Below, piece by piece: positions 55,261 through 56,522 of a stretch of DNA of 64,000 nt. The DNA comes from Octopus vulgaris. Its lineage: Eukaryota. Each line of letters opens with the position of its first letter. The stretch's first letter is position 1. The stretch is taken from the NCBI GenBank assembly GCA_951406725.2, contig OX597817.1, forward strand, positions 114,576,001 to 114,640,000. The letters are read 5' to 3'. A program made the position numbers and the translations under genes. The notes below the pieces were generated by a model. It had not been told where the DNA came from. It saw only the letters and a program-made list of their open reading frames with translations, and did no database searches.

Positions 55261-55985
55261 ATTTATATATACATGCTTACATGCATACATACATACACAC
55301 AGACACAGAGGCATGACTGAGGTCAAGAAGTATTTTTTTTTCACCATTATGCTTTGGCCTACGAATACCTTGTAAGAAAATTTGCTGGTTGGAAACTGAA
55401 AAAACATGAAGCATTCCATATTACAAGCATGCACACACACACACACACACACCAAATGAGTAGCAACAGGTTGGCCTGATAACCTTCTCAAACCTATAAT
55501 ATCTCAAATAAATATTCCTACACATTAATTTGCCAAACAAATAGGCAGCATTATCAAAGAATGCAAACAGGAGAAATTTAGTATAAGACCAACTGAATTA
55601 TTGAACATTTATGGTGCATTTTGGAGCAGTGGTTCTACCACTTCTCTCCACCATCATTGCTGAAGAAGACAAAGCAGGTTCTATGTGAAGAATGCTGCAA
55701 AATTCCCCTGTTTGAATCGATTTCTTTGTATATTAAAGCTATGATTGGCACCAAAAGTGGACTAACTAATTCTCTATTAAATAATAATTGTTTTTCATTT
55801 AACAAGGTGTTCCCATTGTTTCATCCAATCCCTGTATGTACATATATGTGTACACACACAAACACACACAAACACACAACGTGTGTGTGTGCTTGTGCAT
55901 GAATGCACCTTCATGTTTGTGTTTGTCTTTTGCTGCTTGACAAGCTGTGTTAATTTGTTTACAGCTCAGTAACAGTAACTTAGTT

Positions 55986-56299
55986 TTGTCTGGGGAGAGG
56001 GATTTTCTTTTTGTGCCTCATAATGTAACACACTCACCTGTAAAATTTCCACTTATTCCTTATTTTTATTTTCCTAAAATTTTTGTTGCGTCTTGCAACA
56101 TTTTCAAGACTATTGAAAAGGTTGCAAGACACAATGAAAATTTCAGGAAAATAAAAATAAGGAATAAGTGGAAATTTTACCGGTGAGTGTGTTACATTAT
56201 AAGGCACAAAAAGAAAATTACTCTCCCCAGACACAACAGAATATGCTTCAACACACGAACTCACATAAAGAATCTTGCAAACCAAATCCAAAAACAAAA
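55986..56299. mobile_element. Family G palindromic insertion with 12-bp TSD, inside a SINE B remnant
   Basis: Arms 55987-56107 and 56113-56233; right arm extends to ~56296; AGTAACTTAGTT at 55974-55985 and 56300-56311. Confidence 0.85.
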
Positions 56300-56522
56300 A
56301 GTAACTTAGTTGTTTAACAAAAAGAAACCAAATGAATAAAATAGACTTAATATTGTGTTTGATTTAATTGACTAAAACTCTTTAAATGCAGTGTTCCAGC
56401 ATGGTCACAACCCAGTGAAACAAATATGTGAATATCTTACTTAGAAATATATATACATGTTTGTGTATTTGTGCATGTTTATATGTATGCATGTGTATGT
56501 GTATATATAAATAAATTTATAT

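What the first reader, a model, noticed from the sequence alone, without database searches (positions are those of the whole stretch)
55974..56311. Palindromic family G element with a putative U3-A8 compensatory hammerhead variant
Seen: ~121-bp arms around a 5-nt centre, a longer right arm and a 12-bp TSD (AGTAACTTAGTT), the same architecture as 52875-53392. Merging the two arms gives CUA-UUGAAAA-N-GUUGC(aagac)GCAAC-GAAA-AU-UU-UAGG followed by AAUAAA. This aligns position for position with the other minimal hammerheads here: 7-nt core, one extra nt, stem II, GAAA, 2-nt palindrome centre, UH, stem I. It has C3-G8 replaced by U3-A8 and C15.2-G16.2 by A-U. Established: positions 3 and 8 form a Watson-Crick pair and U3-A8 variants exist in nature. 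Inference: a doubly compensated hammerhead that CUGANGA-based searches would miss. Caveats: stem I is only 3 bp, UUU is a poor cleavage triplet, and each individual arm carries inactivating changes.
Basis: partly seen in the sequence, partly recalled or inferred. Interest (0 to 1): 0.72.

Follow-up and report, generated by a model that had tools for sequence, protein, structure and literature searches.

The report
Penelope retroelement stub with U3-A8 hammerhead
This palindrome is a decayed stub of a very abundant Penelope-like jumping gene, likely in an octopus genome, whose family carries a hammerhead-shaped, predicted self-cutting RNA with a U-A instead of the usual C-G core pair; that variant is already published for blood-fluke elements, so this is an ordinary new example.

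Summary
In detail: 125-bp arms, a 12-bp target duplication and the hammerhead-like sequence are there. The element is a 5'-truncated, 5'-inverted copy of a Penelope-like retrotransposon (PLE): longer copies run into an RT + CX4CxxC + GIY-YIG ORF, and at least 3,349 copies exist. Its sister family has C3-G8 at the same place, with compensatory changes in stems I, II and III; 12 of 12 related metagenome loci with a sense-strand hammerhead behind the ORF keep a Watson-Crick 3-8 pair (8 C-G, 3 U-A, 1 A-U). So it is very likely a genuine minimal type I hammerhead. Stem I stays 3 bp, both arms here are damaged, cleavage is untested, and copy 5' ends show no peak at the cut site (1 of 85) but one 13 nt upstream of the core (15 of 85). 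U3-A8 minimal hammerheads in PLEs are published (Schistosoma Cercyon, about 1,300 hits), and this scan noted the same kind before, in this and other genomes. New member of a known kind; low interest.

The parts
55974..55985 (+). Left target-site duplication (12 bp; last 3 nt shared with the arm end)
   Evidence: 12 nt is the modal TSD length of the family (22 of 91 copies, control 5 of 455)
55983..56107 (-). Inverted 5' arm: family positions 0 (U3) to about +124; hammerhead copy without 5' strand of stem I and with G12>A
   Evidence: outer ends of inverted arms at +123..+132 in 50 of 63 copies
56104..56112 (+). Start of the direct copy: 4-nt microhomology with the inverted arm (56104-56107), then family positions -5..-1; 56110-56112 is the 5' strand of stem I
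56113..56119 (+). Hammerhead core 3-9, U3 U4 G5 A6 A7 A8 A9 (U3-A8 variant)
   Evidence: 30 of 30 best copies; U3 90, A8 100 of 100 listed among 1,278 matches
56120..56135 (+). Extra G, then stem II (5 bp, G10.1-C11.1 in the family) with 5-nt loop; two CpG-type changes in this copy
56136..56146 (+). GAAA, palindromic minimal stem III (A15.1 A U U16.1), U17, predicted cut between 56143 and 56144, 3' strand of stem I (U1.1>C in this copy)
56147..56216 (+). A-rich leader between hammerhead and ORF start (rest of the pLTR)
56217..56299 (+). First about 28 codons of the PLE ORF (start codon position reads ATT in this copy); the part beyond the inverted arm is the PLE 'tail'
   Evidence: ATG at +104 in L018; in L063 this stretch runs on into the ORF, homologous to the N-terminus of the sister family's 1312-aa ORF; direct copies end at +180..+186 in 85 of 91
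56300..56311 (+). Right target-site duplication (12 bp)

Best explanation
This is a decayed, 5'-truncated and 5'-inverted insertion of a high-copy Penelope-like retrotransposon, and the family's pseudo-LTR carries a predicted minimal type I hammerhead ribozyme with U3-A8 in place of C3-G8. [quoted passage not shown] Inferred mechanism: the GIY-YIG domain nicks AT-rich DNA, reverse transcription starts inside the ORF's 5' end (two preferred points, about +127 and +182, giving the short inverted arm and the long direct arm), runs through the uncut hammerhead and often stops about 13 nt upstream of the core, likely the 5' end of the RNA. In intact elements the hammerhead likely folds with stems I and II and needs a second copy (palindromic stem III) and probably protein help to cut, weakly; both arms of this copy would not cut.
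For: PLE: GIY-YIG Pfam PF01541 above cutoff, weak RVT_1 match E 0.008 plus YVDD in a 665-aa frame, same 3' part about 0.6-1.1 kb behind the endonuclease in most endonuclease-selected loci, 3,349 exact tail matches, control 0, inverted piece in 63 of 91 copies, TSD of 10-15 nt in 33 of 91 against 11 of 455 controls. Same architecture is described for PLEs (PMC3846280 passages; PMC11167929). Hammerhead: an intact copy folds by itself into stems I and II as its minimum-energy structure (-7.3 kcal/mol). Sister family (62% aa identity; sister on the tree 100/100) has C3-G8 at the homologous place and paired changes in stem I (U-A to C-G), stem II (two pairs) and 15.2-16.2. With no pairing demand on 3-8, 12 of 67 metagenome loci gave a sense-strand hammerhead behind the ORF, all 12 Watson-Crick at 3-8 (8 C-G, 3 U-A, 1 A-U); shuffles gave 0.2 paired and 0.7 unpaired hits a pass. 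In runs of four other organism labels the only core position 3-9 with a listed variant is N7. U3-A8 ribozymes are reported active in vitro and natural (PMC3088659 section 8).
Against: No cleavage was measured. Stem I is 3 bp with pair probability about 0.36; the triplet is UUU. Copy 5' ends show no excess at the cut site: 1 of 85 at +30..+32, 1.6 expected; none clustered in the sister either (1 at +30 and 1 at +35 of 71, cut at +34). Predicted homodimer energies did not give the stem III dimer fold for family G. Within-family constancy reflects copying from few masters, not selection on copies. The 12 metagenome loci are not independent (four form one clade). Two further hits were set aside: a weak unpaired one inside an ORF (L266) and an opposite-strand C-G one (L236).
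Confidence: 0.85

Rival explanations
1. The motif descends from a hammerhead but no longer cuts in this family; it is kept as a protein-binding or promoter structure, or simply inherited.
For: 3-bp stem I, UUU triplet, no 5'-end peak at the cut site, no pile-up of RNA ends (unstranded library of another organism label). In the anole element hammerhead mutants did not affect insertion in vitro (PMC11167929).
Against: The 3-8 pair was swapped and kept Watson-Crick in several lineages, which fits selection on the active-site geometry; C3.A8 copies (55) are scattered over subfamily backgrounds and fit an elevated ApT>ApC rate, so no mismatch-core subfamily spread.
Confidence: 0.12
2. The element is a MITE or other TIR DNA transposon, and the hammerhead likeness is chance.
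For: Long inverted arms and a target duplication.
Against: Arms are unequal, inner junctions vary from -39 to +93, 28 of 91 copies have no inverted piece, TSD lengths vary around 12, and longer copies run into an RT-GIY-YIG ORF.
Confidence: 0.01
3. The opposed arms form a working ribozyme pair or a regulatory hairpin at this locus.
For: The whole insert folds into one long hairpin (-175.8 kcal/mol) and would give double-stranded RNA if transcribed.
Against: The two motifs lie on opposite strands, so one transcript cannot hold both; the hairpin buries the sense motif; both copies carry damaging changes; such inversions are the usual by-product in this family (63 of 91).
Confidence: 0.02

Closest known systems
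Minimal hammerheads (min-HHR) of metazoan PLE pLTRs, U3-A8 variant of Schistosoma mansoni Cercyon elements (Cervera and De la Pena 2014, PMC4209133; parts 1-2 of 4 read)
   Same: Type I topology, unpaired base between 9 and 10.1, G10.1-C11.1, palindromic 15.2-16.2, short stem I, U3-A8, location in the pLTR, pairs on opposite strands 100-700 bp apart, mostly truncated copies.
   Different: Host (likely octopus); stem II 5 bp and stem I 3 bp against 7-8 and 4-5 bp in the fluke families; carrier has the CX2-5CxxC linker of Neptune/Nematis-type PLEs. Supplementary alignments of that paper were not read and may list cephalopod motifs.
Neptune/Nematis-type EN+ Penelope-like elements (Craig et al. 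2021, PMC8557442; passages)
   Same: Single ORF RT - CX2-5CxxC linker - C-terminal GIY-YIG; pLTR, tail, inverted 5'-truncated copy, AT-rich targets.
   Different: Tail about 55 nt rather than 30-40; long Asn-rich N-terminal region; clade not fixed for lack of reference sequences.
Poseidon element of Anolis (PAc; Frangieh et al. 2024, PMC11167929; parts 1-2 of 4 read)
   Same: Two 3' end points inside the ORF's 5' end that define the tail; hammerhead just before or at the ORF start; no trace of ends at the cut site.
   Different: C3-G8 core; ORF starts inside the hammerhead there, 104 nt behind U3 here.
Natural U3-A8 hammerheads (Perreault et al. 2011, PMC3088659; section 8 and passages read)
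   Same: Same compensatory core swap, reported active.
   Different: Those are not described there as PLE minimal motifs.

Membership tests
EN+ Penelope-like element | RT domain in a single ORF | tested here: met
   665-aa frame with YVDD and DKS motif, RVT_1 E 0.008 (below cutoff); 184 homologues, some named reverse transcriptase domain
EN+ Penelope-like element | C-terminal GIY-YIG endonuclease | tested here: met
   PF01541 24 and 28.7 bits, cutoff 22.6
EN+ Penelope-like element | pLTR plus tail made of the ORF's 5' end; inverted 5'-truncated copy; short variable TSD | tested here: met
EN+ Penelope-like element | Tandem arrangement giving two direct pLTRs | tested here: inconclusive
   Seen for the sister family (4.6-kb period); no intact tandem of this family found among 20 stretches fetched
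Neptune/Nematis clades | CX2-5CxxC linker between RT and EN | tested here: met
   C-x4-C-x2-C before the GIY-YIG motif, read by eye (definition)
Neptune/Nematis clades | RT phylogeny with reference PLEs | not tested
   No reference PLE sequences were at hand; the tree holds only unnamed relatives
Minimal type I hammerhead | Core N3 U4 G5 A6 N7 N8 A9, G12 A13 A14, A15.1-U16.1, H17 with Watson-Crick 3-8 | tested here: met
   Family majority; not met in the left arm of this copy (G12>A)
Minimal type I hammerhead | Stem II with G10.1-C11.1 and one extra base after position 9 | tested here: met
   compensatory changes against the sister
Minimal type I hammerhead | Stem I of 4-5 bp as in the commonest min-HHRs | tested here: not met
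   3 bp; relatives show 2-6 bp and the D. virilis motif has 2 bp
Minimal type I hammerhead | Palindromic stem III region | tested here: met
   4-nt palindrome A15.1-A-U-U16.1
Minimal type I hammerhead | Self-cleavage after H17 as a dimer | not testable with these tools
   Indirect traces were negative or uninformative
TIR DNA transposon / MITE | Fixed terminal inverted repeats and fixed-length TSD | tested here: not met

The most novel reading that the evidence does not exclude
Within one PLE clade the hammerhead 3-8 pair has flipped among C-G, U-A and A-U several times (and A9 has changed to C in a young, intact sister family), yet genomic copies derive from uncut RNA that begins 13 nt before the core. 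The ribozyme would then sit at the very 5' end of the transcript and act as a switch that removes the capped leader and takes RNAs out of the retrotransposition pool, rather than as a processing step; the two octopus sister families form a natural pair for testing this.
Probability: 0.15. Interest if true: 0.55.

Novelty: new member of a known kind. Interest (0 to 1): 0.2.

Why it matters
As found, it adds one more host and PLE lineage to a published variant and shows that descriptor searches fixed on CUGANGA undercount hammerheads by thousands of copies per genome. The function of PLE hammerheads is still open; the panel of natural 3-8 pairs in close relatives and the 5'-end peak just upstream of the motif give material to test it, but this copy itself is dead.

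Tried and rejected
1) Rfam scan: no hammerhead family among the 150 rows shown of 279; Rfam models do not fit minimal motifs well, so not counted against. 2) Genomic trace of cleavage: none (1 of 85 at the cut; 6 of 91 copies extending beyond -40 were left out of the test); the window copy at 39909-40060 begins within 3 nt of the cut site but is a single case. 3) RNA runs: no holder on record as RNA was listed; three raw RNA runs of another organism label cover the motif on both strands with no pile-up of ends: uninformative. 4) A selenocysteine reading for many identical copies with one TGA: these are one truncated copy repeated with its flank, several near contig ends. 5) A C3.A8 mismatch subfamily: 55 copies against 12 and 22 for control T>C changes, 7 U3.G8 and 1 C3-G8; 30 of the 55 examined share no haplotype and the ApT>ApC rate is 3.1% against 0.3% and 1.2% in the control contexts, so post-insertion mutation explains it. 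6) A splice acceptor at -11 (CAG before it): copies starting there share no upstream exon. 7) A -13 peak in the sister family: absent; its ends cluster at -69..-63 (7 of 71) and +104..+118 (13 of 71). 8) Lunse et al. 2017 on dimeric PLE hammerhead variants is not held; seen only as a reference title, it may cover U3-A8 and A9 variants. 9) A search for 'hammerhead ribozyme' with 'octopus' listed 4 papers, none by title or abstract on octopus hammerheads; supplements were not read.

Full report
Observation. The window holds inverted arms at 55983-56107 and 56113-56237 (125 nt, 92% complementary, 5 nt apart) between two exact copies of a 12-mer at 55974-55985 and 56300-56311, the only two in the window.

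Family. A search of the window's genome (2.8 Gb, 227 contigs) with the right arm gave 2,642 candidates, 40 scored. In the 30 best loci the core is invariant (30 of 30), GAAA is intact in 28, and stem II differs mainly at two CpG sites; the 5-nt 'centre' is ordinary upstream family sequence, so stem I is CUA/UAG, 3 bp, with no extension. These loci were chosen by likeness to the query, so I also used patterns: a 32-nt tail pattern has 3,349 exact matches (control 0), and a hammerhead pattern with positions 3, 7, 8 and 9 left free has 1,278, of which the first 100 listed show U3 in 90, C3 in 9, G3 in 1, and A8 in all 100. The closest named protein relatives are labelled Octopus vulgaris and a piece of one matches the genome at 100%, so the host is likely an octopus.

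Carrier. Two loci extended about 1 kb upstream into a GIY-YIG coding stretch (Pfam PF01541 above cutoff). Searching with it returned 150 scored matches; 26 of the first 30 loci hold a match to the element's 3' part, mostly 0.6-1.1 kb downstream in the same orientation. One copy has a 665-aa open frame with RT motifs, a C-x4-C-x2-C linker and the endonuclease; its RVT_1 match is weak (E 0.008). That linker marks Neptune and Nematis PLEs (PMC8557442 passages). In L063 the element's last 60 nt run on into the ORF, homologous to the N-terminus of a 1312-aa ORF of a sister family; the ATG lies 104 nt behind U3. So the right arm is pLTR plus the first 28 codons, the PLE tail.

Insertion anatomy. Among 91 copies taken in order along one contig, 63 have an inverted 5' piece, whose outer end lies at +123..+132 in 50; direct copies end at +180..+186 in 85 (selection by the tail pattern forces ends beyond +158); TSDs of 10-15 nt occur in 33 of 91 with a mode of 12 (22), against 11 of 455 mismatched-flank controls. 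This is the structure described for PLEs (PMC3846280 passages) and fits reverse transcription starting at two points inside the ORF's 5' end, shown in vitro for the anole element (PMC11167929). A TIR transposon is excluded.

Is it a hammerhead? An intact copy folds into exactly stems I and II as its minimum-energy structure (-7.3 kcal/mol; stem II pairs 0.99, stem I about 0.36), while both window arms misfold. The sister family (62% identity; 100/100 sister on the tree) has, at the homologous place before a homologous tail, C3-G8, a 5-bp stem II with two pairs changed on both sides, stem I CCA/UGG against CUA/UAG, and G15.2-C16.2 against A-U; it also has C at position 9 (read by eye; my scan there demanded A9 and printed nothing). 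Of 67 related metagenome loci, a scan with no pairing demand on 3-8 found sense-strand motifs behind the ORF in 12, all Watson-Crick at 3-8: 8 C-G, 3 U-A, 1 A-U; it also gave one weak unpaired hit inside an ORF and one opposite-strand C-G hit; shuffles gave 0.2 paired and 0.7 unpaired hits a pass. One more U3-A8 motif (L209) and seven C3-G8-like motifs were read by eye and did not pass the scan. On the tree, U3-A8 sits next to C3-G8 in three supported groups (family G with sister; L205 with L214; L209 in a 99/99 clade), two of which rest partly on by-eye labels; the backbone is unresolved. In runs of four other organism labels the only listed variant in core 3-9 is at N7.

Does it cut? Not tested. 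Copy 5' ends give no sign: 1 of 85 at +30..+32 against 1.6 expected, whereas 15 of 85 lie at -13..-11 (P 5e-11; 6 longer copies left out); the same boundary is a top loose end in two DNA-like runs of other organism labels. The sister has no peak at its cut site or at -13. Unstranded RNA reads of a related organism cover the motif without a pile-up of ends. This agrees with the anole element, where uncut RNA is the main template and cutting needed protein, and with low in vitro activity of min-HHRs. The excess of C3.A8 copies is explained by mutation context, not by a mismatch subfamily.

Comparison and novelty. Cervera and De la Pena 2014 describe min-HHRs in PLE pLTRs, opposite-strand pairs, and a U3-A8 variant in Schistosoma Cercyon elements with about 1,300 hits. 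Perreault et al. 2011 report natural U3-A8 cores and cite in vitro activity. Searches listed no paper on octopus hammerheads by title or abstract; supplements were not read and Lunse et al. 2017 was not available. Earlier notes of this scan report the same kind of motif in this genome and others (unchecked). Verdict: a real feature, correctly read as a U3-A8 minimal hammerhead of a PLE, a new member of a known kind; this copy is inactive by prediction. Interest 0.2.

Noticed in passing
L201 (G000:C1:59392000-59401999), also L202-L204: Young sister PLE family with intact 1312-aa ORF, Asn-rich N-terminal region and 4.6-kb tandems; 2,158 exact tail matches. Its hammerhead has C3-G8 but C at position 9 and a non-palindromic 4-nt stem III insert; L205 also has C9.
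   Followed up: partly
family positions -13..-11 (window equivalent about 56100-56102): Strong 5'-end peak of copies just upstream of stem I, at a C|A step beside a short quasi-palindrome; may be the transcription start or a template-switch hotspot.
   Followed up: partly
L244:1709 (metagenome locus): Hammerhead behind a related PLE ORF with an A3-U8 core pair, single locus.
   Followed up: no
L213:21 and L213:3431: Complete PLE on a 3.5-kb metagenome contig with two identical pLTR hammerheads, both U3-A8.
   Followed up: no
L208, L209, L240, L243, L266, L268 and the sister family: An AANATGGC motif (YY1-like, label recalled) lies shortly upstream of the hammerhead; in the sister family 7 of 71 5' ends fall 5-10 nt before it. 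Family G lacks it there.
   Followed up: no
window 39366-39464 and 39909-40060 (minus strand): Two more short copies of the same family; the second starts within 3 nt of the predicted cut site.
   Followed up: partly
window 52875-53392 and 53922-54168: Another palindromic family with a canonical C3-G8 minimal hammerhead and (ATT)n tracts; carrier ORF not sought.
   Followed up: no
window 50888-51223: Another long palindrome, 155-nt arms, 92% complementary, 26 nt apart; not examined.
   Followed up: no
L065-L075, L078-L080: One truncated copy of the family repeated with near-identical scores on many contigs, several close to contig ends: likely a segmental or subtelomeric duplication.
   Followed up: partly
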